A DNA stretch of 32,000 nt from Xanthomonas campestris pv. campestris str. ATCC 33913. Lineage in GTDB: Bacteria > Pseudomonadota > Gammaproteobacteria > Xanthomonadales > Xanthomonadaceae. Below are positions 7,651 to 28,405 of this stretch, one piece after another. The number at the start of each line of letters is the position of its first letter. Position 1 is the stretch's first letter. The notes beneath the pieces are model-generated. The model did not search any database. It saw only the letters and a list, made by a program, of their open reading frames with translations, and was not told the DNA's origin. The stretch covers positions 550,325 through 582,324 of the forward strand of contig NC_003902.1 in assembly GCF_000007145.1 (NCBI RefSeq), in the 5' to 3' direction. A program made the translations under genes and the position numbers.

Positions 7651-9125
<1,475 letters not shown>

Positions 9126-9126
<1 letters not shown>

Positions 9127-10196
9127 TGGACGGGCAGGGCAGCGCTGCACGCATCAGCTTTCGCAACGATTACAGCGAGGGCGCACATCCGCGCGTCTTG
9201 CAGGCATTGGCGCAGGCCAGTGACGAGCAAAATGGCGGCTACGGCACCGATCGGCATAGCGAACGTGCTGCGGCATTGATCCGCAATGCCATCGCGCAAC
9301 CGCAGGCCGCCGTGCATCTGCTGGTCGGTGGCACGCAGACCAACCTGATTGCGATCAGCGCGTTTTTGCGCCCGCATCAGGCGGTGATTGCGGTGGAAGC
9401 GGGCCACATCGCCACGCACGAAACCGGCGCGATCGAGGCCACCGGGCACAAGGTGCTCACCGTCCCCGCGCTGCACGACAAGCTGACGCCTGCATTGATC
9501 GCGCCACTGCTTGCGGTGCACAGCAACGAGCACATGGTGCAGCCGCGCCTGGTTTATCTTTCCAACAGCACCGAGAGCGGCACCATCTACACGCGTGCCG
9601 AACTTGAGGCGCTCGCGCAGTTCTGCCGCGCGCACGACTTGCTGCTGTATCTGGATGGCGCGCGCCTGGGCGCGGCATTGACTGCCCATGGCAACGATCT
9701 GGATCTACCGACGATTGCCGCGCTCACCGATGCGTTCTACATCGGCGGCACCAAGAATGGCGCCTTGCTCGGCGAAGCGCTGATCATCGTGACGCCGGCG
9801 TTGCAGGCCGATTTCCGCTACCTGATCAAGCAACGCGGCGCGCTGCTGGCCAAGGGCATGGTGCTGGGTGCGCAGTTCGCTGCGCTTTTCGAAGAGGGGC
9901 TGTTCTTTGAGTTAGCCGCGCATGCCAATGCAATGGCGCAGCGGCTGCGTGCCGGCTTGCTGGCCGCCGGCGCCGAATTCACCAGCAACTCGCCGACCAA
10001 CCAGCAATTCATTGCCGTGAGCGCGCAGCAGGCCGAGCAGATCGCGCAGCGCTACGACTTCGAACGCTGGGAAACGCGCAGCGACGGCCGCCTGGTGATT
10101 CGCTTCGTGACCTCGTGGGCCACCACGCCTGCCGCAGTTGATCGTCTGTGCGCGTATGTTGCGGCCCTTTTGCAGCATCCTGCGGTGCAGTCATGA
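9126..10196 (+). CDS. Threonine aldolase / beta-eliminating lyase family PLP enzyme
   Basis: The ATG at 9126 overlaps the trpE stop (TGATG). The sequence has NDYSEGAHPRV, GGTQTNL, YLDGARL and a GGTKNG putative PLP-lysine loop. The track ORF start at 9057 lies inside trpE. Confidence 0.8.
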
Positions 10197-10209
10197 CTAG
10201 ATATCAAGG

Positions 10210-10575
10210 ATGACAGCGATTAACAGAATCGCTGGTTGGGTGCTCTCCGCTGCCCTGATGTTGCCGACTGTGGTCGCAGCGCAGATCAATAACTTGCCAT
10301 CGCGACCGCATTTGCTGATGAAAGGTCAGGCGTTCCTCACCGTCGATCCGGACTGGTTCATGATCGACCTCAGGGTCAGCAAGACCGAACTGCAGCCTGA
10401 TCTTGCGTGCAAGTTCATCAAGGAGCTTGCGCGCGTTGTCTTGGACGGATTGCAACGTAACCATGTGCTGAAGGATTCGCTGTACGCCTCCGCGTTGTCG
10501 ATCGCGCCGCAATCGCGTTATCAAGATTGCGCAGCCTTTTCGGCACAACGTTGGCGAGTCACCGGCGAAATTTGA
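10210..10575 (+). pseudogene. SIMPL/DUF541-like periplasmic protein, N-terminal half only (probable truncated remnant)
   Basis: A signal peptide (MTAINRIAGWVLSAALMLPTVVAAQ) is followed by a pattern like SIMPL N-termini (LLMKGQAFLTVDPDWFMIDLRV ... LYASALSIAPQSRY). It is 121 aa, about half the length I recall for the family. Confidence 0.4.
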
Positions 10576-10699
10576 GCCATAGCGATTGCTCGGCTCGTTG
10601 GCATCTGCGGCAGTCTGTCGGGTACTGCATCCGGTAAAATGGTCCGTCACCTGCCGAGCGTTTTGATGGCGCGGCAACCATCTGCGATTGAGGTTTCAT

Positions 10700-13684
10700 A
10701 TGCGCGTCAGGGAAAGCACCATCGAGCAGGAGCTTGTCGAAAAGCTCGGGGGGCTCAAGTACACCCTGCGAGCTGACATTCGCAGCCGTGCTGCGCTCGA
10801 AGCCAATTTCCGCAAGCATTTCGAAGAGCTGAACCGGGTCGCCTTGACCAACGCCGAATTTCAGCGCTTGCTCGAAGAGGTCGTTACCGCCGATGTATTC
10901 AAAGCCGCGCACACCTTGCGCCACCGCAACGCTTTTACGCGCGACGACGGCACGCCGCTCAACTACACCTTGGTCAACATCAACGACTGGTGCAAGAACA
11001 CCTTCGAGGTTGCCAGCCAGCTCCGCATCAATACCGACGACAGCCACCATCGTTATGACGTCATCTTGCTCATCAATGGCGTGCCGGCGGTGCAAATCGA
11101 GCTGAAAACGCTAGGTATCAACCCGCGGAGGGCCATCGAGCAGATCGTCGAGTACAAACACGATGTCGGCAACGGTTACACACGCACACTGCTGTGTTTC
11201 ATCCAGCTGTTCATCGTGAGCAATCGTGACGCGACCTACTATTTTGCCAACAACAACGCGCGCCATTTCGCTTTCAATGCGGATGAGCGTTTTCTGCCCA
11301 TCTACCAGTACGCGGCGCCGGACAATAGCAAGATCAGCGGCTTGGATGCCTTTGCCGACGCCTTCCTGCCCAAGTGCACGCTGGGGCAGATAATCAGTCG
11401 CTACATGGTGTTGGTGGCCAGTGAGCAGAAGCTCTTGATGATGCGGCCTTACCAGATCTACGCGGTGAAGAACATTGTCGAGTGCATCGACAAGAACCTC
11501 GGCAACGGCTACATCTGGCACACCACCGGTAGTGGCAAGACGCTCACCAGCTTCAAGGCATCGACGCTGCTCAAGGCCAACCCCGCCATCGAGAAATGCC
11601 TGTTCGTGGTGGACCGCAAGGACTTGGATCGCCAGACCCGCGAGGAGTTCAATCGCTTCCAGGAGGGCTGCGTCGAGGAAAATACCAATACCGAATCAAT
11701 GGTGCGCCGCCTTGTCTCCGACGATGCCGCAGACAAGGTCATCGTCACCACCATCCAGAAGCTGGGCCGTGCATTGGATCCGGCCCGTGCCGACTACCGT
11801 CAGCACCTGGAGCCCTTGCGCGACCAGCGCATGGTGTTCATTTTCGATGAATGCCACCGTTCTCAGTTCGGCGAGAACCACCAGGCCATCAAGGAGTTCT
11901 TTCCCAAGGCCCAGCTATTCGGCTTCACCGGTACGCCGATCTTCGAGGACAACGCCAGCTACAGGCGCATCGAAGGCGACGAACAGACGCTGAAGACCAC
12001 CGAAGACCTGTTCCAACAGTCCCTGCACGAATACACCATCACCCACGCCATTGAGGACAGGAACGTCCTGCGTTTCCATGTGGACTACTACAAGCCTGAT
12101 GGCAAGAATGCGCCAAAGCCAGGCGAAACGCTGGCCAAACGCGCCGTGGTCGATGCCATCCTCAGCAAGCACGACGCCGCCACCGGCGGGCGACGCTTCA
12201 ACGCCCTCTTCGCTACTGCGTCGATCAACGACGCCATCGAGTATGTCGGGTTGTTCAAAGCCGCGCAGTTGGAAAAGCAGCAGGCTGACTCCGGCTACGT
12301 GCCGCTCAACATCGCTGCCGTGTTCTCGCCTCCCGGTGATATCAGCGCCGACGTGCGCCAGTTGCAGGAAGACCTGCCACAGGAGCAGGCAGACAACAGG
12401 ACAGACCCAGATGCCAAGAAGGCCGCATTGAAAGCCATCGTCGCCGACTATAACGTGCGCTTTGGCACCAACCACCGCATCGAGGAATTCGACGCGTACT
12501 ACCAGGACGTGCAGCAGCGCATCAAGGACCAGCAATTCCCCAACGCCGACCTGCCGATGAAAGGCCGCGAAAAGTTGGACATCGTAATCGTGGTGGACAT
12601 GCTGCTCACAGGCTTCGACAGCAAATATCTGAACACCCTGTACGTGGACAAGAACCTCAAGTACCACGGCCTGATTCAGGCGTTCAGCCGCACCAATCGC
12701 GTACTCAACGACACCAAGCCCTACGGCAACATCCTTGACTTCCGTAGCCAGCAATCGGCCGTGGATGCCGCCATCGCACTGTTCTCTGGCGCCAAGGCAG
12801 AAAAGGCGCGTGAAATCTGGCTGGTGGACACCGCCCCGGTAGTCATCGACAAACTCCAAAAGGCGCGCGCCAGCCTCGACAGCTTCCTTGCATCGCAAGG
12901 GCTGGGCGGCAAACCCGAAGACATCGCCAACCTCAAGGGCACGGCAGCCAAGGTCGCCTTCGTCAAGCACTTCAAGGACGTTCAGAAGCTGCAGACCCAG
13001 CTCGACCAGTACACCGATCTGACCGCCGAGCAACAGGCGCAGGTCGAGGCCATCCTGCCCAAGGACGAACTGCGTAGCTTTCGCGGTCAATACCTGCAAA
13101 AAGCCGAGGAACTGCGCGCCGACCAGAAGAAGGCCGGCGGGCTGGATGACGCTACACGCAACGACGTCGAGCAGCTCGATTTTGAGTTCGTGCTGTTCGC
13201 TTCCAGCACCATCGATTACGACTACATCATGAAGTTGATCGCCGATTATTCGGGTAAGGCGCCGGGCAAAGCCAGCATGAGCCGCGAGCAGTTGATCGGC
13301 CTGATTGCCAGTGATGCCAAGTTTGTCGACGAGCGTGAGGACATCAGCGCGTACGTGCGCGGGCTCAAAGCTGGCGAGGGACTGAGCGAGGAGGCCATCC
13401 GCGCCGGCTATGAGGCGTTCAAGGCAGAAAAAGCCGCCCAGGAAATGACCGCGCTCTCCGGCAGGCACGGCTTGCCGGTTGCCGACCTGCAGGCATTCGT
13501 CGATGCGGTTCTTGCCCGTCGCATCTTCGACGGCGAACGCCTCACCGAACTGCTGGCCCCGCTGGACCTTGGCTGGAAGGCGCGCACCCAGGCAGAACTG
13601 GCATTGATGCGCGATCTGCTGCCGCTGCTGCACAAACGTGCCGGTGGGCGTGAAATCGCTGGTCTGAAGGCGTACGAGAAATGA
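10700..13684 (+). CDS. hsdR: Type I restriction enzyme R subunit (EcoR124-like, type IC family)
   Basis: YIWHTTGSGKTLTSFKA, FVVDRKDLDRQT, VTTIQKL, VFIFDECHRSQFG, FGFTGTPIF, LLTGFDSKYLNTLYVDKNLKYHGLIQAFSRTNR are near-colinear with EcoR124I HsdR as I recall it. The ATG at 10700 has TGAGG upstream. Confidence 0.92.
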   Translation: MRVRESTIEQELVEKLGGLKYTLRADIRSRAALEANFRKHFEELNRVALTNAEFQRLLEEVVTADVFKAAHTLRHRNAFTRDDGTPLNYTLVNINDWCKNTFEVASQLRINTDDSHHRYDVILLINGVPAVQIELKTLGINPRRAIEQIVEYKHDVGNGYTRTLLCFIQLFIVSNRDATYYFANNNARHFAFNADERFLPIYQYAAPDNSKISGLDAFADAFLPKCTLGQIISRYMVLVASEQKLLMMRPYQIYAVKNIVECIDKNLGNGYIWHTTGSGKTLTSFKASTLLKANPAIEKCLFVVDRKDLDRQTREEFNRFQEGCVEENTNTESMVRRLVSDDAADKVIVTTIQKLGRALDPARADYRQHLEPLRDQRMVFIFDECHRSQFGENHQAIKEFFPKAQLFGFTGTPIFEDNASYRRIEGDEQTLKTTEDLFQQSLHEYTITHAIEDRNVLRFHVDYYKPDGKNAPKPGETLAKRAVVDAILSKHDAATGGRRFNALFATASINDAIEYVGLFKAAQLEKQQADSGYVPLNIAAVFSPPGDISADVRQLQEDLPQEQADNRTDPDAKKAALKAIVADYNVRFGTNHRIEEFDAYYQDVQQRIKDQQFPNADLPMKGREKLDIVIVVDMLLTGFDSKYLNTLYVDKNLKYHGLIQAFSRTNRVLNDTKPYGNILDFRSQQSAVDAAIALFSGAKAEKAREIWLVDTAPVVIDKLQKARASLDSFLASQGLGGKPEDIANLKGTAAKVAFVKHFKDVQKLQTQLDQYTDLTAEQQAQVEAILPKDELRSFRGQYLQKAEELRADQKKAGGLDDATRNDVEQLDFEFVLFASSTIDYDYIMKLIADYSGKAPGKASMSREQLIGLIASDAKFVDEREDISAYVRGLKAGEGLSEEAIRAGYEAFKAEKAAQEMTALSGRHGLPVADLQAFVDAVLARRIFDGERLTELLAPLDLGWKARTQAELALMRDLLPLLHKRAGGREIAGLKAYEK

Positions 13685-14973
13685 GCATGGGAAAGCAAGG
13701 GGTGAAGACGGCAGTGCCGAAGTTGCGGTTTCCGGAGTTTAGGCATTCCGAGGCCTGGGAGCTCAAGAAGTTGAGCTGCTTCCTCGTCGAACAGAAGAAG
13801 CGGAACAAAAACCTGAGTTTTGGCCCACAAGAGGTGCTGTCCGTCTCGGGTGAGCATGGGTGTGTCAATCAGATCGAGCTTCTTGGCCGATCATACGCGG
13901 GTGTCTCTCTTGCAAACTACCACGTCGTAGAAACGGGTGACATCGTTTATACAAAAAGCCCGCTTAAGAGAAATCCGTTTGGCATCATCAAAGAAAACAA
14001 AGGGAAGCCAGGCGTCGTATCCACACTCTATGCTGTCTATCGCACGACAGTTTTTGGGAATCCCGCGTTTTTGGATCACTATTTCTCTGGTGACTACAAC
14101 CTCAATAGTTACTTGCAGCCTATTGTCAGGAAGGGTGCAAAAAATGACATGAAGGTAAGTAATGCTGCAGTGCTCGCTGGAGAAGTGTTCGCCCCAGAAG
14201 TTGAAGAGCAGAAAAAAATTGCTGACTTCCTAACGTCGCTGGACGACTTGATTTCCGTGCAGGTGCTGAAAGTGGAGGCGCTGAAGGTTCACAAGCGCGG
14301 CTTGATGCAGGAACTCTTCCCCCGCGAAGGCGAAGCCAGCCCCCGCTTACGTTTTCCCGAGTTTAGTAATGCCTCAGGGTGGACTCTCGGCAAGGCAAGC
14401 GACATTATTGACGTGTTGCAAGGTTACGGTTTCCCCGAGAGGCTGCAGGGAGGCCGAGAGGGTAATTTTCCGTTCTACAAGGTTAGCGACATCTCGGCAT
14501 GCGTGGATGCCGGGGGCATCCTTCTAGACAAGGCTAATAACCACATTGATGCTGATGTTCTTGAGGAACTTCGTGCCAAGTTGATGCCAATTGGATCAAC
14601 AGTGTTCGCGAAGATCGGTGAGGCGATTCGTTCGAACAAGCGTGCGATCACGTCGCGACCTTGCCTTGTTGACAACAACGTGGCTGGGGTCAAGGCGATC
14701 ACAGGCTTGGCACATGATCGCTTTGTCTACTACATGTGGTGTCAGATTCCACTCATCGAGTACGCGGGCGGTGTGGTCCCAGCCGTGAAAAAGTCATTGA
14801 TGGAGCAGATTCCCGTGTGCTATCCAAAATTTGATGAGCAGCAACGTATCGCCGACTTCCTTTCTTCCCTGGATGCCAAGATCGCCGCCGAATTCGACCA
14901 GCTCGCCGCCCTCAGGACCCACAAGAAGGGCCTAATGCAGCAGCTGTTCCCTCTGAGTGAGGTCGGCTTGTGA
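13681..14973 (+). CDS. hsdS: Type I restriction-modification specificity subunit
   Basis: Two variable target-recognition halves are each preceded by (P)RLRFPEF. The conserved spacer helices are EEQKKIADFLTSLDDLI ... HKRGLMQELFP and DEQQRIADFLSSLDAKI ... HKKGLMQQLFP. The start overlaps the hsdR stop (ATGA). Confidence 0.9.
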   Translation: MSMGKQGVKTAVPKLRFPEFRHSEAWELKKLSCFLVEQKKRNKNLSFGPQEVLSVSGEHGCVNQIELLGRSYAGVSLANYHVVETGDIVYTKSPLKRNPFGIIKENKGKPGVVSTLYAVYRTTVFGNPAFLDHYFSGDYNLNSYLQPIVRKGAKNDMKVSNAAVLAGEVFAPEVEEQKKIADFLTSLDDLISVQVLKVEALKVHKRGLMQELFPREGEASPRLRFPEFSNASGWTLGKASDIIDVLQGYGFPERLQGGREGNFPFYKVSDISACVDAGGILLDKANNHIDADVLEELRAKLMPIGSTVFAKIGEAIRSNKRAITSRPCLVDNNVAGVKAITGLAHDRFVYYMWCQIPLIEYAGGVVPAVKKSLMEQIPVCYPKFDEQQRIADFLSSLDAKIAAEFDQLAALRTHKKGLMQQLFPLSEVGL

Positions 14974-16070
14974 CGCTGAATGAAATTGCCGGCACTTTGC
15001 GCGATAGCGATGCGCGAATCATTCTTGTCTATGCCTTCAATGCCACAGGCAAGACCCAGCTTTCCGTCGCCTACAAGAACGCGACGAAACAGGAGGATGG
15101 GGGGCATTCCGGAGTTTATTACAACGCGTACAGCGAAGACCTTTTCGTCTGGGATAACGATGAACAGAACGAAGGGGGGGGCATTCGGCTGAGGGTGCTG
15201 CCCAGTAGTTTAAGCCGATTTCATGCGTTGCTGACGGAAGATAATATTCGAGTAAAACTTAGGGCGTATAAACCGAAGTTCGGCTTTACTATAAATTTGC
15301 ACGAAGATGATCCGGAAAAGGGGGTTGAGTCAATCATATTCTTCATCCCGAGCCAGAATCCGGATGTGACTCAACTGCCTATTAAGATTTCTCGCGGTGA
15401 AGAACGTATATTTGTGTGGTGTTTCTTTCTTGCCTTGTTTGAAGTCGAAGGGTGGGCTGACCAACAGGCAAGCCATTTTTTCATCGACGATCCTGTTTCA
15501 AGCCTGGATGACCATAATATATTTATTACGGCGGCTACGCTTTTTGATCTCATCGAAAGCCATTTCAATAAGCGAAAAATATTTGTCACTACTCACCACC
15601 TTGGCCTTTTTTCGATCCTGAGCGACTGGCTCACAAAGGGGGAGCGGAAAGATAAATTCAAGAAGAATGGAAAGCCTCTTTACAATATTAATATTCTAAG
15701 CTCGAAGTCAGGTCAGCTCAAGTTAGAAAATTGTCGGAAAGACGTGTTCCTGTACCACCTTCGCATGCTTCAAGTGCTGTCTGGCGCCCGCAGTACCAAT
15801 GATGTTCGTGCCTACCACTTCGCTTTACTCCGTCAGGTTCTGGAAAACGTAGCGTCGTTTCTTGGTGTTGGGCAATTCGGATACGTGCTAGATCAGATCG
15901 GAATCAATGAACCTAATAGGGTCGCTGATATCGTCAATGCTCTATTGCACAAGAAAGTTTACTACTTCGAGTCGGATATCGTTGTTTCTGACAATTTAGA
16001 AATTTTCAATGAAGTGATGGATGGACTTCTTACGAAATACAACTTCGTGTTGCATGAGGCTGAGGCATGA
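14970..16070 (+). CDS. PrrC-like ABC-type ATPase (AAA_13-like), putative anticodon nuclease / abortive-infection effector
   Basis: GTG start in a GTGA overlap with the hsdS stop. Motifs: P-loop AFNATGKT (aa 22-29), ABC signature-like ISRGEERIF (140-148), Walker B/D-loop HFFIDDPVSSLD (169-180), H-loop TTHH (207-210). A C-terminal R288-x3-E292 ... H327 resembles the Arg-x3-Glu ... His triad described for EcoPrrC. The position after hsdS in a type IC locus matches the prr paradigm. This is the AT-richest gene in the window. Confidence 0.6.
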   Translation: MTLNEIAGTLRDSDARIILVYAFNATGKTQLSVAYKNATKQEDGGHSGVYYNAYSEDLFVWDNDEQNEGGGIRLRVLPSSLSRFHALLTEDNIRVKLRAYKPKFGFTINLHEDDPEKGVESIIFFIPSQNPDVTQLPIKISRGEERIFVWCFFLALFEVEGWADQQASHFFIDDPVSSLDDHNIFITAATLFDLIESHFNKRKIFVTTHHLGLFSILSDWLTKGERKDKFKKNGKPLYNINILSSKSGQLKLENCRKDVFLYHLRMLQVLSGARSTNDVRAYHFALLRQVLENVASFLGVGQFGYVLDQIGINEPNRVADIVNALLHKKVYYFESDIVVSDNLEIFNEVMDGLLTKYNFVLHEAEA

Positions 16071-17077
16071 GCGCGCTAATCCTCTACACCAGCGAAGATG
16101 GCAAGAGCCGCATCCAGTTGCGCGCCGAAGGCCAGACCGTTTGGCTGACGCAGGCGCAGATGGCGGAGCTGTTCGACGTCACTACCGACACCATCAGTCT
16201 GCACCTGAAAAACATCTTTTCAGACAATGAGTTGGAGCCTGAACGAACTACCGAGGAATCCTCGGTGGTTCAGCGGGAGGGTGCGCGCGAGGTGCGCCGG
16301 CCGGTCACGCTCTACAACCTCGACGCCATTCTGGCGGTCGGTTACCGCGTGCGATCAAAGCGCGGGGTACAGTTCCGCCGTTGGGCCAGCACCGCGCTCA
16401 AGGAATATCTGCTCAAGGGCTTCGTCATGGACGATGAGCGCCTGAAGAACCCGGATGGCCGTCCCGATCACTTCGACGAGATGCTGTCCCGCATCCGCGA
16501 CATCCGTGCCTCGGAAAAGCGCTTCTATCAAAAAGTACGCGAACTGTTTGCTCTGAGCGTTGACTACGACAAGACCGACCGCGCAACGCAGGTCTTCTTC
16601 GCCACCGTGCAAAACCAATTGCTCTATGCAGTGACTGGGCAGACCGCCGCCGAACTCATCATGGCCCGCGCCAACCCCGACGATCCACATTTCGGCCTGC
16701 GCGCATGGAGCGGTGGGCGCGTGCGCAAGCAGGACATTCTGATCGCCAAGAACTACCTGAGTGAGGATGAGATCGACACCCTCAACCGTCTGGTGACCAT
16801 CTTCCTGGAGACTGCAGAGCTGCGCGCCAAGAATCGCCAGGAGATCCCCATGCGCTTCTGGAGGGAAAACGTCAGCCAGATCATTAGTTCCAATGACTTC
16901 CCCTTGCTGGCCAATGCCGGTTCTGTCAGTCACGCACGGATGGAGACGGAAGCCAACGCGCGCTATTTCGCCTTCGACGAGCAGCGCAAGCAGCAGGAGG
17001 CGCTGGCCGCCGATGCTGCTGACACTACCGAACTTGCCGCCATCGAAAATAAGATTAAACGACGCTTGAAACCATGA
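16067..17077 (+). CDS. RhuM-family protein (function unknown; N-terminal HTH-like region)
   Basis: ILYTSEDGKSRIQLRAEGQTVWLTQAQMAELF, LDAILAVGYRVRSKRGVQFRRWAS, IRASEKRFYQKV and FFATVQNQLLYAVTGQTAAELI are typical of the Virulence_RhuM family as I recall it. ATGA overlaps occur at both ends. Confidence 0.8.
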   Translation: MSALILYTSEDGKSRIQLRAEGQTVWLTQAQMAELFDVTTDTISLHLKNIFSDNELEPERTTEESSVVQREGAREVRRPVTLYNLDAILAVGYRVRSKRGVQFRRWASTALKEYLLKGFVMDDERLKNPDGRPDHFDEMLSRIRDIRASEKRFYQKVRELFALSVDYDKTDRATQVFFATVQNQLLYAVTGQTAAELIMARANPDDPHFGLRAWSGGRVRKQDILIAKNYLSEDEIDTLNRLVTIFLETAELRAKNRQEIPMRFWRENVSQIISSNDFPLLANAGSVSHARMETEANARYFAFDEQRKQQEALAADAADTTELAAIENKIKRRLKP

Positions 17078-18690
17078 CCAAAGACGACCAAAAAGAACTT
17101 GGTAAAACTCTGTGGGCGATTGCCGACCAGTTGCGCGGAAGCATGAATGCCGACGACTTCCGCGACTACATGTTGTCCTTCTTGTTTTTGCGCTACCTGT
17201 CGGATAACTACGAGGCTGCGGCAAAGAAGGAGCTTGGCTCGGACTATCCCGACGCGAAGACCATCGGTAATAGCGACAAGACTCCGCTGTCGGTGTGGTA
17301 CGCGTCCAATCCGGGCGATGTAGCCGCATTCGAGCAACAGATGCGGCGCAAGGCGCATTACGTCATCAAACCTAAGTACTTGTGGGGCAATATCGTCAAT
17401 CTGGCGAAGAAACAAAACCACGATCTGCTCGACACCTTACAGCAAGGCTTCAAACACATTGAGGAAGATTCGTTCGAGAGCGAGTTTCAGGGCTTATTCT
17501 CGGAGATCAACCTTGCTTCGGACAAGCTTGGCAGAAAGTACGACGACCGCAACGCCAAGCTGTGTTCGATCATCAGCGAAATTGCGCGCGGCATGGCGCT
17601 GTCTGCCAAGACGGATTCGCTGGGCGATGCTTACGAGTACCTGATCGGCCAGTTCGCGGCCGGCTCCGGCAAGAAGGCTGGCGAGTTCTATACGCCGCAA
17701 GAGATCTCCAACATCCTGTCCGCCATCGTCACCCTCGACAGCCAGGAGCCGAAAACCGGCCCGCGCGGCAAGTTGGATAGCGTGTTCGATTTCGCTTGCG
17801 GCTCAGGCTCGCTACTGCTCAATATCCGTAATCGTATGACGAACAGTGGCGGCAGCATCGGTAAGATCTACGGGCAGGAATACAACGTCACCACCTACAA
17901 CCTTGCGCGCATGAACATGCTGTTGCACGGGGTAAAGGACACCGAGTTCGAGATCTATCACGGCGACACGCTGAAGAACGACTGGGACTGGCTGCGCGAA
18001 ACCAATCCGGCAAAAAAGCCCCGTTTCGACGCCGTGGTCGCGAATCCGCCTTTCAGCTATCGCTGGGAGCCGGGCGAAGCGATGGCGCAAGACGCGCGCT
18101 TCAAGAACCACGGCGTGGCGCCCAAGAGCGCAGCCGATTTCGCCTTCCTTCTGCACGGTCTGCAGTACCTGAAAGACGATGGCGTGATGGCGATCATCCT
18201 ACCGCACGGCGTGTTGTTTCGCGGTGGCAAGGAGGCCGACATCCGCCGCAAGCTACTGGACGACGGCCATATCGACACGGTGATCGGCCTGCCGGCTAAC
18301 CTGTTCTACTCCACCGGCATTCCGGTATGCATTCTGGTGCTGAAGAAATGCAAGAAACCGGATGACGTGCTGTTCATCAACGCAGCCGGTCACTTCGCTA
18401 AGGGCAAGCGCCAGAATCAACTGACAGACGAACACATTCAGCGGATCGTCAACACGTACCAGAACCGGAACAAGCAGGATCGCTATTCCCGGTGCGTGTC
18501 GATGAAAGAGATCGCCGACAAGGACTACAACCTCAATATTTCGCGTTATGTCAGCACCGCAGAAGCCGACAAGGAGATCGTTCTTGAGGCCGTGCATGCC
18601 GATTTGACGGCGATCGAATCGAGGCTCGAAGAGTCGAAGAAGCGCCACAATGCCTTTCTTGTCGAGCTTGGGCTCAAGCCCCTGCCGTGA
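17074..18690 (+). CDS. hsdM: Type I restriction-modification DNA methyltransferase subunit
   Basis: HsdM N-terminal domain (LWAIADQLRGSMNADDFRDYMLSFLFLRYLS), an AdoMet motif (DFACGSGSLLL) and the catalytic NPPF (VVANPPFSYRW). Confidence 0.92.
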   Translation: MTKDDQKELGKTLWAIADQLRGSMNADDFRDYMLSFLFLRYLSDNYEAAAKKELGSDYPDAKTIGNSDKTPLSVWYASNPGDVAAFEQQMRRKAHYVIKPKYLWGNIVNLAKKQNHDLLDTLQQGFKHIEEDSFESEFQGLFSEINLASDKLGRKYDDRNAKLCSIISEIARGMALSAKTDSLGDAYEYLIGQFAAGSGKKAGEFYTPQEISNILSAIVTLDSQEPKTGPRGKLDSVFDFACGSGSLLLNIRNRMTNSGGSIGKIYGQEYNVTTYNLARMNMLLHGVKDTEFEIYHGDTLKNDWDWLRETNPAKKPRFDAVVANPPFSYRWEPGEAMAQDARFKNHGVAPKSAADFAFLLHGLQYLKDDGVMAIILPHGVLFRGGKEADIRRKLLDDGHIDTVIGLPANLFYSTGIPVCILVLKKCKKPDDVLFINAAGHFAKGKRQNQLTDEHIQRIVNTYQNRNKQDRYSRCVSMKEIADKDYNLNISRYVSTAEADKEIVLEAVHADLTAIESRLEESKKRHNAFLVELGLKPLP

Positions 18691-18835
18691 AATTTTAGCC
18701 AGACTGCCGAAGTGTCCGAGTTCATCGGATAATGTCGGTTTAAGGTCGTTCGACGGTTGCCCAGGCGTGAAGTCAAGTCTGTATCCGCCGTTGAAATCCT
18801 GAAATATCTTTTGAAAATCAGCGTGGTGAAGAGAC

Positions 18836-19414
18836 GTGCTCTTGATGCTAGATAACTACGACAGCTTCACCTACAACCTCGTGCAGTACCTGCAGGCCCT
18901 GGGCGCGGAGGTCACGGTGGTGCGCAACGATGCGATGAGCGTCGATCAGATCGCTGCGCTCAAGCCGGAGCGCATCGTGATCTCGCCCGGTCCGCGTACG
19001 CCGAACGAGGCTGGCATCTCGTTGCAGCTGATCGAGCAACTGGGCCAGACCACGCCGATCCTCGGTGTCTGCCTGGGGCACCAGAGCATCGGTCAGGTCT
19101 ATGGCGGCGATGTGATCCGCGCCAGCAACATCATGCATGGCAAGACCTCGCCGATCCGCCACCACGGCAAGGGCGTGTTCGCCGGTCTGCCGGACAGCTA
19201 CGAGGCCACGCGCTACCACTCGCTGGTGGTGGACAAGGCCACCTTGCCCGACGCGCTGGAAGTCACCGCGTGGACCGAAAATCCGGACGGCTCGATGGAA
19301 GAGATCATGGGCCTGCGCCATCGCCAGTTCCCGGTCGAAGGCGTGCAGTTTCATCCGGAGTCGATCCTCACCCAGCACGGCCATGCGTTGCTGAAGAATT
19401 TCCTGGAGCGCTGA
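18836..19414 (+). CDS. trpG: Anthranilate synthase component II (glutamine amidotransferase)
   Basis: [19 protein letters not shown] ..., a GVCLGHQ catalytic Cys, and HPES. The GTG start was chosen by N-terminal homology; an ATG at 18845 is the alternative. Confidence 0.9.
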
Positions 19415-19537
19415 GCGCTGCTGCCTGCGCCAACGCGCATGCAGCGCAGCACACATGCGCGCCGCAACGCACAGCTCTTCCCATCGCGGCGCCAACGCAT
19501 CCACTTCCCGCACTAGCACCGCAATGCCTGGACCACG

Positions 19538-20170
19538 ATGAACCAGCCCGCCGACACCTTCCATTTCTACGAGCCAGCCAACGGGCACGGGCTGCCGCAC
19601 GATCCGTTCAATGCCATCGTCGGCCCGCGACCGATCGGCTGGATCGGCTCGCGCAGCGTCGAGGGCATCGTCAACCTGGCGCCGTACAGTTTCTTCAACG
19701 CCTTCAACTACACCCCACCAATCGTCGGCTTCGCAAGCATTGGCTGGAAGGACAGCGTGCGCAACATCGAGTCCACCGGGGTGTTCACCTGGAATCTGGC
19801 CACCCGTCCGCTGGCCGAGGCGATGAATGCCAGCGCTGCGTTGGTGCCACAGGAGGTCGACGAGTTCGAGTTGGCCGGCCTGCAGGCCGCGCCGTCGCGG
19901 CTGATCGACGTGCCGCGTGTGGCGGCCAGCCCGGTGAGCTTCGAGTGCCGGCTCAGCCAGTTGATTCCGTTGCAGGCTGCCGATGGGCAGCCCATCCAGA
20001 CCTGGCTGGTGCTGGGCGAAGTGGTCGGCGTGCATCTGGCGCACGCGGCGCTGAGCGATGGCATTTACGATCCGGCCGCGGTGCACACCATCCTGCGCGC
20101 CGGTGGCCCGGCCGATTATTTCGAAGTGCAGGCGCAGGCGCGGTTTCGCATGCGGCGCCCGGGGCAGTGA
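19538..20170 (+). CDS. Flavin reductase-like (FMN-binding split-barrel) protein
   Basis: NLAPYSFFNAF ... PPIVGF and the overall length and pattern fit flavin reductase domain proteins. It is inserted between trpG and trpD. Confidence 0.75.
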   Translation: MNQPADTFHFYEPANGHGLPHDPFNAIVGPRPIGWIGSRSVEGIVNLAPYSFFNAFNYTPPIVGFASIGWKDSVRNIESTGVFTWNLATRPLAEAMNASAALVPQEVDEFELAGLQAAPSRLIDVPRVAASPVSFECRLSQLIPLQAADGQPIQTWLVLGEVVGVHLAHAALSDGIYDPAAVHTILRAGGPADYFEVQAQARFRMRRPGQ

Positions 20171-20294
20171 CCAGCGGGTGGCACTGATTCGGTCCTGTGC
20201 ATGCAGGCGTACGCACGCGGCTTGCTCGGTCACGCTGGCCCCGCACACTGCGCGCATCGCCTGATGTCTTTCTTCTTACTCCACGGTTGATTCC

Positions 20295-21332
20295 ATGCCC
20301 ATCACCCCACAACAAGCCCTGCAACGCACCATCGAGCACCGCGAGATCTTCCATGACGAAATGGTCGATCTGATGCGGCAGATCATGCGCGGCGAGGTGT
20401 CCGATGCCATGGTCTCTGCCATCCTGACCGGCTTGCGGGTCAAGAAGGAAACCATTGGCGAGATCGCCGGTGCGGCCACGGTGATGCGCGAGTTCTCGCG
20501 CCGCGTGGAGGTCACCGATCGCCGCCACATGGTCGATATCGTCGGCACCGGCGGCGACGGTTCGCACACCTTCAACATTTCAACCTGCGCCATGTTCGTG
20601 GCCGCTGCCGGCGGCGCAAAAGTCGCAAAACACGGTAACCGCAGCGTGTCGTCCAAGTCGGGCAGTGCCGACGCATTGGAGGCGTTGGGCGCGGTGATCG
20701 AATTGCAGCCCGAGCAGGTGGCTGCATCGCTGGCGCAGACCGGCATCGGTTTCATGTACGCACCCGTGCATCACCCGGCGATGAAAGTGGTGGCACCGGT
20801 GCGCCGCGAGATGGGCGTGCGCACCATCTTCAATATTCTCGGCCCGCTGACCAATCCCGCCGGTTCGCCAAACATCTTGATGGGCGTGTTCCATCCGGAT
20901 CTGGTGGGCATCCAGGCGCGCGTGCTGCAGGAACTGGGTGCCGAGCGCGCGCTGGTGGTGTGGGGCCGCGATGGCATGGACGAACTCTCGCTGGGTGCCG
21001 GCACCCTGGTTGGCGAGTTGCGCGACGGGCAGGTACACGAATACGAGGTGCATCCGGAGGATTTCGGCATTGCCATGTCGGCCAGCCGCAACCTCAAGGT
21101 GGCCGATGCCGCCGAGTCGCGCGCCATGCTGTTGCAGGTGCTCGACAACGTGCCCGGCCCGGCGCTGGACATCGTGGCGCTCAACGCCGGCGCGGCGCTG
21201 TACGTGGCCGGCGTGGCCGACAGCATCGCCGATGGCATCGTGCGCGCCCGCCAGGTGCTCGCCGATGGCTCGGCACGTGCCTGTCTGGACGCCTATGTCG
21301 CCTTCACGCAGCAGGCCACCGCACAAGGCTGA
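20295..21332 (+). CDS. trpD: Anthranilate phosphoribosyltransferase
   Basis: [38 protein letters not shown] and [10 protein letters not shown] are classic TrpD motifs. Confidence 0.93.
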
Positions 21333-21455
21333 TTCCCGTGTCCGGCCACGCTGGCCGGCACCCTCACGGCGGCGCTGGCATGCTGCGCTGCGCGCGCAGG
21401 TCAGGTCGCCGCCATGATCTTGACCGATAATGCCCGCCCGCCAGGACCCGACACG

Positions 21456-22253
21456 ATGAGCGATATTCTCAACACCATCCTTGCCCGCAAGGCCGACGAA
21501 ATCGCCGAGCGCAGCGCACGCGTGCCGCTGGCCGAGCTGGTCGCGCGTAGCGCAGACCTGCCGCTCACCCGCGGATTTGCCGCCGCCATGAAGGCCAGCA
21601 TTGCCGCCGGCGAGCCAGCCGTGATTGCCGAAGTAAAGAAGGCCAGCCCGTCCAAGGGCGTGATCCGGCCCGACTTCCATCCGGCTGACATCGCGGTCAG
21701 CTACGAGTTCGGTGGTGCCAGCTGCCTGTCGGTGCTGACCGACATGTATTTCTTCCAGGGCTCCGATGCGTATCTGCAGCAGGCACGCGAGGCCTGCACC
21801 TTGCCGGTGCTGCGCAAGGATTTCACCGTCGATCCGTACCAGGTCTACGAGGCGCGCGTGCTGGGCGCCGACTGCATCCTGCTGATCGTCTCGGCGCTGG
21901 AGGACCAGCAACTGGCCGACCTGTCCGGTCTGGCGATGCAGTTGGGCCTGGATGTGCTGGTGGAAGTGCACGACATCGACGAGCTCGAGCGTGCGGTGCA
22001 GGTGCCGGTGCCGCTGGTGGGCATCAACAACCGCAACCTGCGCACCTTCGAGGTGTCGTTGCAGACCACCCTGGACATGCGCGCAGCTGTGCCGCGTGAT
22101 CGCGTCCTGGTCACCGAAAGCGGCATCGTCACCGCATCCGACGTGCAGTTGATGCGCAGCAACGGCGTGAACGCGTTTCTGGTCGGCGAGACCTTCATGC
22201 GCGCGCCCGAACCCGGCGAAGCACTGCGTCAGCTATTCTTTGCGCATGACTGA
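21456..22253 (+). CDS. trpC: Indole-3-glycerol-phosphate synthase
   Basis: [16 protein letters not shown] ..., [34 protein letters not shown]. The internal ATG at 21456 was preferred over the track start at 21414. Confidence 0.9.
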
Positions 22254-28199: not shown

Positions 28200-28274
28200 T
28201 GGCTGCCCCGGATGGATTCGAACCACCGAATGCCTGAGTCAGAGTCAGGTGCCTTACCGCTTGGCGACGGGGCA
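28200..28274 (-). tRNA. tRNA-Gln (anticodon CUG)
   Basis: Hand-folded cloverleaf. Acceptor TGCCCCG/CGGGGCA plus G-CCA, anticodon arm CCTGA-CTCTGAC-TCAGG, T-loop GGTTCGAATCC. It closely parallels E. coli tRNA-Gln. Confidence 0.9.
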
Positions 28275-28328
28275 ATATAAAACGTGTTGGTCCAAGAGTA
28301 TCGCACGCCTGTGAGGGCCTGAACACCT

Positions 28329-28405
28329 TGGTGGCTATGGGTGGACTCGAACCACCGACCCCAGCATTATGAGTGCTGTGCTCTAACCGGCTGAGCTACA
28401 TAGCC
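28329..28405 (-). tRNA. tRNA-Met, elongator type (anticodon CAU)
   Basis: GGCTATGTAGCTCAGCCGGTTAGAGCACAGCACTCATAATGCTGGGGTCGGTGGTTCGAGTCCACCCATAGCCACCA. It has a G1-C72 pair and resembles E. coli metT. A lysidine-modified tRNA-Ile2 identity cannot be fully excluded by eye. Confidence 0.88.

What the first reader, a model, noticed from the sequence alone, without database searches (positions are those of the whole stretch)
10700..18690. Five-gene translationally coupled Type I R-M operon with two foreign genes nested between hsdS and hsdM
All four internal junctions are 4-nt start/stop overlaps: ATGA at 13681-13684, GTGA at 14970-14973, ATGA at 16067-16070 and ATGA at 17074-17077. The order is hsdR, hsdS, PrrC-like ATPase, RhuM-family protein, hsdM. 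The restriction subunit gene therefore comes first and the protective methylase gene last. The classical prr locus (type IC EcoprrI) has only PrrC inserted, and RhuM-family genes are seen in Type I loci without an assigned role. Having both in one tightly coupled unit suggests a multi-layer defence module. In that model R-M activity, a latent RNase-type suicide effector, and an uncharacterised third component are stoichiometrically co-expressed. RhuM might act as a sensor, regulator or antidote, or as a separate effector. I know of no description of this combined architecture, but I cannot search.
Basis: partly seen in the sequence, partly recalled or inferred. Interest (0 to 1): 0.78.

Follow-up and report, generated by a model that had tools for sequence, protein, structure and literature searches.

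The report
Type I restriction operon with PrrC and RhuM
This is an intact Xanthomonas campestris anti-phage restriction operon carrying the already-studied PrrC tRNA-cutting backup nuclease plus an optional RhuM defence gene, a combination described in 2013, so it is real but ordinary.

Summary
Five + strand genes (hsdR 10700-13684, hsdS 13681-14973, prrC 14970-16070, rhuM 16067-17077, hsdM 17074-18690) are joined by four 4-nt start/stop overlaps, and all five family assignments hold.

The novelty claim does not hold.
- The PrrC protein is 100% identical to AAM39782.1 of X. campestris pv. campestris. This is almost certainly the "XcaPrrC" analysed in 2006 and expressed in yeast in 2010.
- PrrC-like plus RhuM-like genes inside R-M loci, read as multilevel defence, were described by Anantharaman et al. 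in 2013.
- RhuM is PADLOC candidate PDC-S05. One representative gave about 1000-fold protection against T7 and T5 on its own (2026).

My survey refines the interpretation.
- R-S-PrrC-...-M is the fixed order in all 80 related loci, which span many phyla. PrrC is therefore a core gene of this lineage, not a foreign insert.
- Its low GC is a family-wide trait.
- RhuM fills a variable slot before hsdM in only 10 of 78 loci. It occurs in the same lineage without PrrC, and it has decayed in several lineages while the other genes stay intact.
- The two middle genes therefore behave as independent embedded modules rather than an obligate three-part machine.

Verdict: already known, low interest.

The parts
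10700..13684 (+). hsdR, Type I restriction subunit (994 aa from the ATG at 10700; the mechanical ORF starts at TTG 10688)
   Evidence: TIGR00348 E 5e-113; Pfam HSDR_N, SWI2_SNF2/ResIII, T1R_D3-like and EcoR124_C; PADLOC REase_I full length. TGSGKT, DECH and D...ELK motifs are visible in the translation. Called as 994 aa in public assemblies.
13681..14973 (+). hsdS, specificity subunit (430 aa); ATGA overlap with the hsdR stop
   Evidence: Pfam Methylase_S on the second TRD; PADLOC Specificity_I full length, E 2e-73. The TRDs cannot be aligned with those of sister Xcc strains.
14970..16070 (+). prrC, anticodon-nuclease family gene (366 aa, GTG start; GTGA overlap with the hsdS stop)
   Evidence: PADLOC PrrC E 9e-99. 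100% identical to AAM39782.1/AAY47559.1, which UniRef names 'Anticodon nuclease'. Motifs: AFNATGKT-Q30, ISRGE, FFIDDPVSSLDDHN, TTHH, R288/Q289/E292, N323/H327, matching the published EcoPrrC and XcaPrrC features.
16067..17077 (+). rhuM, RhuM-family / PADLOC PDC-S05 gene (336 aa); ATGA overlaps on both sides
   Evidence: PF13310 E 2.5e-109 covering 2-251 of 252; PDC-S05 E 9e-149. The identical protein is on 126 Xanthomonas contigs.
17074..18690 (+). hsdM, Type I N6-adenine methyltransferase (538 aa)
   Evidence: TIGR00497 E 6e-115; Pfam HsdM_N plus N6_Mtase. FDFACGSGS and NPPF motifs are in the translation.
13747..16700 (.). Variable cassette relative to sister Xcc strains: hsdS, all of prrC and the first ~600 nt of rhuM, flanked by 99-100% identical DNA
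   Evidence: blastn and sliding identity of the window against L083/L084: 99% up to 13746, about 80% across prrC, 89-97% in 16100-16700, and 100% from about 16700 onward.

Best explanation
This is the chromosomal Type I (EcoR124/EcoprrI-like, type IC-like) restriction-modification operon of Xanthomonas campestris pv. campestris.

It belongs to a widespread lineage whose fixed gene order is hsdR-hsdS-prrC-[variable slot]-hsdM. In this strain the slot holds a RhuM-family gene.

How it most likely works:
1. The five genes are probably read as one transcript, with translation passed on at the 4-nt overlaps (inferred).
2. HsdM2S methylates host DNA, and HsdR2M2S cuts unmodified incoming DNA (by homology).
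3. PrrC is an ABC-type NTPase fused to a HEPN-type anticodon nuclease. It is held latent by the Hsd complex. When a phage anti-restriction factor disables that complex, PrrC cuts a tRNA anticodon loop and aborts the infection. This is established for E. coli EcoprrI/PrrC and inferred here. The tRNA target is unknown because the tRNA-Lys recognition (LARP) motif is absent.
4. RhuM is a separately acquired embedded defence gene (PADLOC PDC-S05) that uses the operon's expression and mobility. It most likely acts on its own by an unknown mechanism rather than as a subunit, sensor or antidote of the PrrC/Hsd machinery.
For: Family assignments.

PrrC:
- Identical to AAM39782.1, named 'Anticodon nuclease'.
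- All published essential NTPase and nuclease motifs are present, including the published XcaPrrC peculiarity of Gln in place of EcoPrrC Arg48.
- The PrrC mechanism and the classical locus order hsdM-hsdS-prrC-hsdR are given in PMC3014915.

Lineage architecture:
- R-S-C-...-M in all 80 genome loci.
- HsdR, PrrC and HsdM identities co-vary (r 0.66-0.78).

RhuM is facultative:
- Full length in 10 of 78 slots.
- Other occupants of the same slot are DUF1016/YhcG nuclease, Bro-N/DinD-like and pYEATS proteins, and VapBC or UPF0149/SEC-C genes can follow RhuM.
- RhuM sits directly upstream of hsdM without PrrC in many metagenome loci.
- It is frameshifted in P. aeruginosa and reduced to terminal stubs in L006-L008.

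Published support:
- A RhuM-domain PDC-S05 gene alone lowered plating of T7 and T5 about 1000-fold (PMC12881386).
- Embedded defence genes in Type I R-M are a described phenomenon, with PrrC as the example that is almost always embedded (bioRxiv 10.1101/2024.01.29.577857; PMC9881135).
Against: - Nothing here shows activity.
- XcaPrrC was non-toxic in yeast, unlike EcoPrrC (PMC3025547). It may be tightly latent, have another target, or be weak.
- The tested PDC-S05 representative came from a cold-seep metagenome, not from this clade, and its context-independence has not been shown for this protein.
- RhuM, where present, is almost always directly and tightly joined to hsdM, and the intra-species recombination tract carries hsdS, prrC and part of rhuM together. 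Some functional coupling is therefore not excluded.
- No promoter was identified.
Confidence: 0.78

Rival explanations
1. Integrated three-tier system. R-M attacks DNA, PrrC attacks tRNA, and RhuM is a third toxin or effector. RhuM would be kept silent by the same complex and released when the R-M is neutralised.
For: - All five genes sit in one overlap-coupled operon.
- RhuM is nearly always immediately upstream of hsdM in this lineage, often with 4-nt overlaps.
- The architecture recurs in Xanthomonas, Thermomonas, Pseudomonas, Cyanobium and others.
- This was proposed in PMC3710099.
Against: - RhuM is absent from about 85% of PrrC loci, and PrrC is absent from many RhuM loci of the same R-M lineage.
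- RhuM decays while the rest stays intact.
- The slot is filled by unrelated genes elsewhere.
- A PDC-S05 gene works alone.
- No toxin-like catalytic fold was found for RhuM.
Confidence: 0.15
2. RhuM is a regulator, antidote or sensor for PrrC. For example, it could be a DNA-binding protein that tunes PrrC latency or operon expression.
For: - The N-terminal region models as a beta-rich plus helical, winged-helix-like unit.
- The only Foldseek hit with high probability is the DNA-binding protein DdrC.
- One source names the protein 'DNA-binding protein'.
Against: - At least 60 of 78 PrrC loci have no gene at all between prrC and hsdM, so PrrC does not need it.
- Classical EcoPrrC is masked by the Hsd proteins themselves.
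- The structural hit is weak (E 8e-3, TM 0.27-0.36, model pLDDT 69).
Confidence: 0.04
3. RhuM is a virulence factor, as its name suggests, and is unrelated to phage defence. It would be merely parked in the operon.
For: The family name comes from Salmonella SPI-3 (PMC3710099). The host is a plant pathogen.
Against: - The family is strongly enriched next to Type I R-M genes (odds ratio 14, PMC9881135).
- It is found in free-living and environmental bacteria of many phyla.
- It has no signal of secretion.
- There is direct anti-phage evidence for a family member.
Confidence: 0.03

Closest known systems
E. coli prr locus: type IC EcoprrI (hsdM-hsdS-prrC-hsdR) with the anticodon nuclease PrrC
   Same: - prrC sits immediately after hsdS inside a Type I operon whose HsdR carries the EcoR124_C domain.
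- The same NTPase motifs are present (A-box ...GKT, DDPVSSLDD, switch His).
- The same Arg-Glu-His nuclease triad is present.
- This very protein (XcaPrrC) is counted as a PrrC homologue linked to an EcoprrI homologue in PMC1484252 and PMC3025547.
   Different: - The gene order is R-S-C-(RhuM)-M instead of M-S-C-R.
- The protein is 366 aa rather than 396 aa.
- Arg48 is replaced by Gln.
- There is no LARP tRNA-Lys recognition motif.
- It was non-toxic in yeast where EcoPrrC is toxic.
- An extra RhuM gene is present.
PrrC-like + RhuM-like + R-M gene neighbourhoods of Anantharaman et al. 2013 (HEPN superfamily survey)
   Same: It has exactly this combination: an ABC-HEPN PrrC-like gene, a RhuM-like gene and R-M subunits in one neighbourhood, interpreted there as a multilevel defence.
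   Different: That paper gives no experimental test and, in the text available here, no gene order or Xanthomonas example. My survey shows the association is facultative rather than fixed.
PADLOC PDC-S05 (RhuM-domain phage defence candidate) and the 'embedded defence genes' concept (Payne et al. 2024 preprint)
   Same: - The window RhuM matches PDC-S05 models at E 9e-149.
- It is embedded between core genes of a Type I R-M, which is how such candidates were defined.
- One PDC-S05 gene protects E. coli B from T7, T5 and T4.
   Different: The tested gene is from another source and was tested alone. Here it is co-embedded with a second embedded system (PrrC).
Type I R-M loci with DUF1016/YhcG, DinD/Bro-N or Fic/DOC genes between core genes
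   Same: The same slot in sister loci of this lineage holds DUF1016/YhcG or Bro-N/DinD-like genes. PMC9881135 lists such inserts together with RhuM.
   Different: They are different proteins. hhalign found no detectable similarity between RhuM and the Bro-N/DinD-like occupant.

Membership tests
PrrC anticodon nuclease family | N-terminal ABC-type NTPase with A-box (AxxGxGKT), B-box plus D-loop (..IDDPVSSLD..) and switch histidine | tested here: met
   AFNATGKT at 22-29, FFIDDPVSSLDDHN at 170-183, TTHH at 207-210, ISRGE at 140-144. These match the EcoPrrC motifs quoted in PMC3025547. The middle Gly of the A-box is Ala.
PrrC anticodon nuclease family | C-terminal nuclease domain with the conserved Arg-Glu-His triad (EcoPrrC R320/E324/H356) and flanking Asn/Gln and Asn | tested here: met
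   R288-Q289-x2-E292 and N323-x3-H327 have the same spacing as R320-N321-x2-E324 and N352-x3-H356. These residues are invariant in 19 homologues. The full-length PADLOC PrrC HMM matches at E 9e-99. No direct pairwise alignment to EcoPrrC was made, because the sequence was not on hand.
PrrC anticodon nuclease family | Genetic linkage to an EcoprrI-like Type I hsd locus | tested here: met
   Embedded after hsdS in an operon whose HsdR has the EcoR124_C domain. The same holds in all 80 related loci.
PrrC anticodon nuclease family | tRNA anticodon-loop cleavage, latent until the R-M complex is inhibited | not testable with these tools
   Published only for EcoPrrC. XcaPrrC was non-toxic in yeast. 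The LARP motif, present in only a subset of PrrCs, is absent here.
Type I restriction-modification system (type IC-like) | HsdR with an N-terminal nuclease, an SF2 motor and an EcoR124-type C-terminal domain | tested here: met
   Pfam HSDR_N, SWI2_SNF2/ResIII, T1R_D3-like and EcoR124_C; TIGR00348 above its cut-off.
Type I restriction-modification system (type IC-like) | HsdM N6-adenine methyltransferase, and HsdS with two target-recognition domains | tested here: met
   TIGR00497 scores 384.8 bits against a cut-off of 242.75; the NPPF and FxGxG-type motifs are present. HsdS matches full-length PADLOC Specificity_I models over residues 7-424. Pfam detects only the second TRD.
RhuM family / PADLOC PDC-S05 | Full-length match to Pfam PF13310 and to the PDC-S05 models | tested here: met
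   PF13310 scores 364.9 bits (cut-off 33.7) over 2-251 of 252; PDC-S05 E 9e-149 over 12-341 of 346.
RhuM family / PADLOC PDC-S05 | Confers phage resistance | not testable with these tools
   Shown for one unrelated representative in E. coli B (PMC12881386).
Obligate three-component PrrC-RhuM-R-M system | The components co-occur consistently across relatives | tested here: not met
   RhuM is full length in 10 of 78 PrrC loci. PrrC is missing from many RhuM loci of the same lineage. RhuM pseudogenes occur with intact partner genes.

The most novel reading that the evidence does not exclude
RhuM is not just a passenger but is functionally wired into the Hsd/PrrC complex, for example as a third effector or as a DNA-state sensor that is unmasked when the restriction complex is disabled. 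In addition, the hsdS-prrC(-rhuM 5') segment is exchanged as a matched specificity cassette, because PrrC latency depends on the particular HsdS it travels with.
Probability: 0.12. Interest if true: 0.55.

Novelty: already known. Interest (0 to 1): 0.15.

Why it matters
It matters little as a discovery. The locus is in genomes that have long been public, its PrrC has been cloned and tested, and the PrrC + RhuM + R-M combination and its layered-defence reading were published in 2013.

The residual value is practical. This Xanthomonas operon is a clean natural case of two embedded defence genes in one Type I operon, with natural comparison loci:
- sister loci without RhuM;
- sister loci with decayed RhuM;
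- sister loci with RhuM but no PrrC.

These could be used to test whether embedded genes act independently of, or through, their host R-M system. They could also help work out what RhuM does, which is still unknown.

Tried and rejected
1. Low GC of prrC (0.456) as a sign of recent foreign insertion: rejected. The deficit is present in every related locus and scales with host GC.
2. My first reading that the window's PrrC allele is rare in Xcc: corrected. Its 90% cluster contains the identical AAM39782.1 on 99 contigs. The 83% allele P0005 (42 contigs) is the alternative.
3. RhuM structure: the AlphaFold2 model reached only pLDDT 69 and pTM 0.46. Foldseek against PDB gave no hit at E<=0.001; the best was DdrC at E 7.6e-3 with TM 0.27-0.36. 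Treated as inconclusive.
4. RhuM sequence and profile against PDB: nothing below E 0.3. PHROGs: no family. NCBIfam: none.
5. Relation between RhuM and the Bro-N/DinD-like occupant of the same slot: hhalign probability 0.5%, no relation detected.
6. PrrC structure: the model has pLDDT 60, too poor to search with, so no fold search was run.
7. The promoter/terminator scan of 10100-19000 gave fewer sites than shuffled sequence and does not define the transcription unit.
8. PrrC against PDB sequences: no solved relative.
9. I could not obtain the EcoPrrC sequence for a direct alignment. Motif mapping rests on motifs quoted in the papers.
Full report
**What is in the sequence.** The region holds five consecutive + strand ORFs:
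- 10688/10700-13684
- 13681-14973
- 14970-16070
- 16067-17077
- 17074-18690

The junctions read ATGA, GTGA, ATGA and ATGA at exactly the stated coordinates. Public assemblies call the first gene from the ATG at 10700, giving 994 aa.

**Gene identities.** Pfam, NCBIfam and PADLOC agree on all five.
- hsdR: TIGR00348 E 5e-113, with HSDR_N, SWI2_SNF2/ResIII, T1R_D3-like and EcoR124_C domains.
- hsdS: PADLOC Specificity_I, full length, E 2e-73.
- PrrC: PADLOC PrrC model E 9e-99 over positions 20-351 of 372. Pfam sees only AAA_13.
- RhuM: PF13310 E 2.5e-109, and PADLOC PDC-S05 E 9e-149.
- hsdM: TIGR00497 E 6e-115.

The translations carry the expected catalytic motifs. HsdR has TGSGKT, DECH and D...ELK. 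HsdM has FDFACGSGS and NPPF.

**Where it comes from.** The PrrC protein is 100% identical to a sequence deposited as AAM39782.1 and AAY47559.1 from Xanthomonas campestris pv. campestris. UniRef names it "Anticodon nuclease", and it is seen on 99 contigs. The RhuM protein is identical to one seen on 126 Xanthomonas contigs.

The operon lies inside the trp gene cluster, between trpE plus a beta-eliminating lyase on one side and trpG, a flavin reductase, trpD and trpC on the other. The same five genes occupy the same site in X. euvesicatoria. It is therefore an old resident of the genus. Operon GC is 0.46-0.59, against about 0.65 in the flanks.

**PrrC membership.** Blanga-Kanfi et al. 2006 (PMC1484252) list X. 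campestris (NC_003902) among the PrrC homologues. They state that all homologues have the Arg320-Glu324-His356 triad and the NTPase motifs, and that all are linked to EcoprrI homologues.

Meineke et al. 2010 (PMC3025547) cloned XcaPrrC (NP_635858) from ATCC genomic DNA. They found it non-toxic in yeast and noted that EcoPrrC Arg48 is replaced by Gln in XcaPrrC.

The window protein has these motifs:
- AFNATGKT followed by Q30
- ISRGE
- FFIDDPVSSLDDHN (EcoPrrC has DDPVSSLDDNH)
- TTHH
- H263 and H283
- R288-Q289-x2-E292
- N323-x3-H327

These residues are invariant in an alignment of 19 homologues. The LARP motif that EcoPrrC uses for tRNA-Lys is absent, so the target may differ. That NP_635858 is the same protein as AAM39782.1 is my inference from strain and species. 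I did not see the RefSeq record.

**Is the block conserved?** A scan of one genome per species with a PrrC alignment found 280 relatives. I examined the best 80 loci, which have 54-80% PrrC identity and come from Proteobacteria, Verrucomicrobiota, Cyanobacteria, Bacteroidota, Bacillota, Chloroflexota, Spirochaetota and others.

tblastn with the window's own five proteins shows the order hsdR, hsdS, prrC..., hsdM on one strand in every locus with enough sequence. HsdR, PrrC and HsdM identities to the window co-vary (r 0.66-0.78). R-first, M-last with PrrC after hsdS is therefore the fixed architecture of a whole Type I lineage. It is not a peculiarity of this window, and PrrC is not a foreign insert in it. 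The classical E. coli order is hsdM-hsdS-prrC-hsdR (PMC3014915). In both, prrC follows hsdS.

**The low GC of prrC.** In the window prrC has GC 0.456 and GC3 0.515, against 0.59 and 0.79 for hsdR. This looked like a mark of recent acquisition. However, prrC is lower in GC than hsdR in 75 of 75 loci and lower than hsdM in 78 of 78. The deficit grows with host GC, from 4.8 points below 45% GC to 9.3 points above 55%, with a regression slope of 0.75. It is a family trait. I did not resolve its cause, which could be selection for poor expression or faster exchange of the hsdS-prrC segment.

**RhuM is the facultative part.** Between prrC and hsdM the picture is as follows:
- About 60 of 78 loci have no room for a gene.
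- 10 have a full-length RhuM.
- 2 more have a RhuM that is cut by a contig end.
- L004 and L016 have a DUF1016/YhcG PD-(D/E)XK nuclease.
- L009 and L010 have a Bro-N/DinD-like protein.
- L066 has a pYEATS protein.
- RhuM is followed by a VapBC pair in L027 and by a UPF0149/SEC-C protein in L045.

RhuM has also decayed repeatedly. It is frameshifted at about residue 248 in the P. aeruginosa loci L090-L093. In L006, L007 and L008 it is reduced to N- and C-terminal stubs. In all of these, prrC and the hsd genes remain intact.

The reciprocal scan, starting from RhuM in metagenome contigs, looked at the best 80 of at least 584 relatives. RhuM of 68% identity or more is almost always directly upstream of an hsdM of this lineage, but its upstream neighbour varies:
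- PrrC of this family or a distant AAA_13 protein of 29-33% identity (8 loci together)
- hsdS directly (10 loci)
- Another gene (11 loci)
- In two loci the order is S-RhuM-AAA_13-M.

PrrC and RhuM are thus gained and lost independently in one R-M frame.

**Variation within the species.** Against Xcc strains carrying the alternative PrrC allele (P0005, 83% identity, 42 contigs), the window behaves as follows:
- 99% identical up to 13746
- Unalignable across the hsdS target-recognition domains
- About 80% identical across prrC
- 89-97% identical across the first 600 nt of rhuM
- 100% identical from about 16700 onward

One recombination tract of about 3 kb has therefore swapped hsdS, prrC and the start of rhuM together. 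The donor must also have had rhuM after prrC. The simplest reading is hitch-hiking with selection for new hsdS specificities. A functional match between HsdS and PrrC is possible but has no direct support.

**What is already published.**
- Anantharaman et al. [quoted passage not shown] They also state that RhuM occupies the position taken by DOC toxins in related neighbourhoods.
- Milman et al. 2023 (PMC9881135) find RhuM-family genes enriched about 14-fold near Type I specificity genes. They list RhuM, dinD, DUF1016 and Fic/DOC genes between Type I core genes.
- The 2024 preprint 10.1101/2024.01.29.577857 formalises "embedded" defence genes in BREX, DISARM and Type I R-M. [quoted passage not shown]
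- A 2026 paper (PMC12881386) tested one PDC-S05 (RhuM-domain) gene alone in E. coli B. It found about 1000-fold lower plating of T7 and T5 and about 10-fold lower plating of T4.
- A 2025 Pseudomonas island survey notes PrrC embedded within Type I R-M loci (PMC12629846).

**What RhuM does.** This remains unknown. The AlphaFold2 model is only moderate (pLDDT 69; the N-terminal 1-117 region is better, at about 80-90). It shows a beta-rich plus helical N-terminal unit and an all-helical C-terminal half. Other probes gave little:
- Foldseek against PDB found nothing at E<=0.001. The best hit was the DNA-binding protein DdrC at E 7.6e-3 with TM 0.27-0.36.
- Sequence and profile searches of PDB found nothing.
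- PHROGs has no family for it.
- hhalign found no relation to the Bro-N/DinD-like slot occupant.

Nucleic-acid binding is a weak lead only.

**Most likely mechanism.**
- Shown by sequence: an intact Type I R-M with all subunits, an intact PrrC with all essential residues, an intact RhuM, and tight overlaps.
- Established for the family: Hsd complexes methylate and restrict DNA, and EcoPrrC is masked by the Hsd complex. EcoPrrC is unmasked by the T4 Stp peptide, with GTP hydrolysis and dTTP, and then cuts tRNA-Lys.
- Inferred here: the same latent second-strike logic applies to XcaPrrC, with an unknown tRNA target. RhuM acts as an independent embedded anti-phage gene that shares the operon's expression and mobility.

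I give this 0.78, an integrated three-tier system 0.15, and the regulator/antidote and virulence readings a few percent each.

**Verdict.** The thing itself is already known. The protein was studied under the name XcaPrrC, and the combined architecture and its interpretation were published in 2013. The embedded-gene concept and RhuM's anti-phage activity were published in 2024-2026.

- the fixed R-S-PrrC-[slot]-M frame across phyla;
- the universal GC deficit of prrC;
- the repeated decay of RhuM;
- the 3-kb hsdS-prrC-rhuM' exchange tract within Xcc.

Interest 0.15.

Noticed in passing
window 14970-16070, and loci L003-L082: prrC has lower GC than the flanking hsdR and hsdM in every related locus (75/75 and 78/78; mean 8 points). 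The deficit grows with host GC (slope 0.75). hsdS shows a smaller deficit. In the window, GC3 is 0.515 against 0.76-0.79 for the neighbours, so amino-acid composition does not explain all of it. The cause is unresolved: it could be low-expression codon choice or faster exchange of hsdS-prrC.
   Followed up: partly
window 7651-22253: The R-M operon interrupts the tryptophan gene cluster: trpE 7651-9126, beta-eliminating lyase 9126-10196, the operon, trpG 18836-19414, flavin reductase 19538-20170, trpD 20295-21332, trpC 21414-22253. The insertion site is the same in X. euvesicatoria (L086).
   Followed up: partly
window 10210-10575 (+): An orphan 121-aa ORF lies between the lyase gene and hsdR. 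It is called as a gene in some assemblies (118-121 aa) and as a 76-aa gene in X. euvesicatoria. It has no Pfam or PHROG family. The region does not align between Xcc and X. euvesicatoria, and a terminator-like hairpin lies inside it at 10404-10435. It may be a remnant of the insertion edge.
   Followed up: partly
window 13747-16700 vs L083/L084: Between Xcc strains, a single tract of about 3 kb (hsdS, prrC and the 5' 600 nt of rhuM) is replaced, and the flanks are 99-100% identical. So hsdS and prrC alleles are exchanged together, and the donor also had rhuM downstream.
   Followed up: yes
L090-L093 9086-10095; L006 11092-11451; L007 and L008 ~11090-11400: RhuM is frameshifted at about residue 248 in the P. 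aeruginosa loci. In P. fluorescens, Paraburkholderia rhizosphaerae and Pseudomonas sp. it has collapsed to short ORFs or stubs that keep only its N- and C-termini, including the junctions with prrC and hsdM.
   Followed up: yes
L004 11236-12255; L016 1182-2231; L009 11262-12125; L010 9984-10847; L066 7084-7689; L027 12364-13026; L045 12238-13263: The slot between prrC and hsdM holds other genes in sister loci: DUF1016/YhcG PD-(D/E)XK nuclease, a Bro-N/DinD-like protein and a pYEATS-domain protein. After RhuM there can be a VapBC-type pair or a UPF0149/SEC-C protein. The slot behaves like a miniature defence-gene hotspot inside the operon.
   Followed up: partly
L110 4794-6919; L111 166-2288; also L095, L097, L114, L120: Some metagenome loci of the same R-M lineage pair RhuM with a PrrC-like/AAA_13 protein that is only 29-33% identical to the window's. 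In two of them (L110, L111) the order is reversed: hsdS-RhuM-AAA_13-hsdM.
   Followed up: no
L090-L093 11844-14865: In P. aeruginosa the same operon is followed on the opposite strand by Mrr-type restriction, NERD/zinc-ribbon and DUF4172-Fic genes. There it sits in a defence island, unlike the trp-cluster site in Xanthomonas.
   Followed up: no
L050 2606-4891: A RhuM N-terminal fragment (residues 1-139, 65% identity) lies inside the span matched by hsdM, which is about 700 nt too long there. It may be a disrupted or rearranged hsdM. I did not examine it.
   Followed up: no
window 28200-28405 (-): Adjacent tRNA-Gln(CTG) and tRNA-Met(CAT) genes. They are unrelated to the operon.
   Followed up: no
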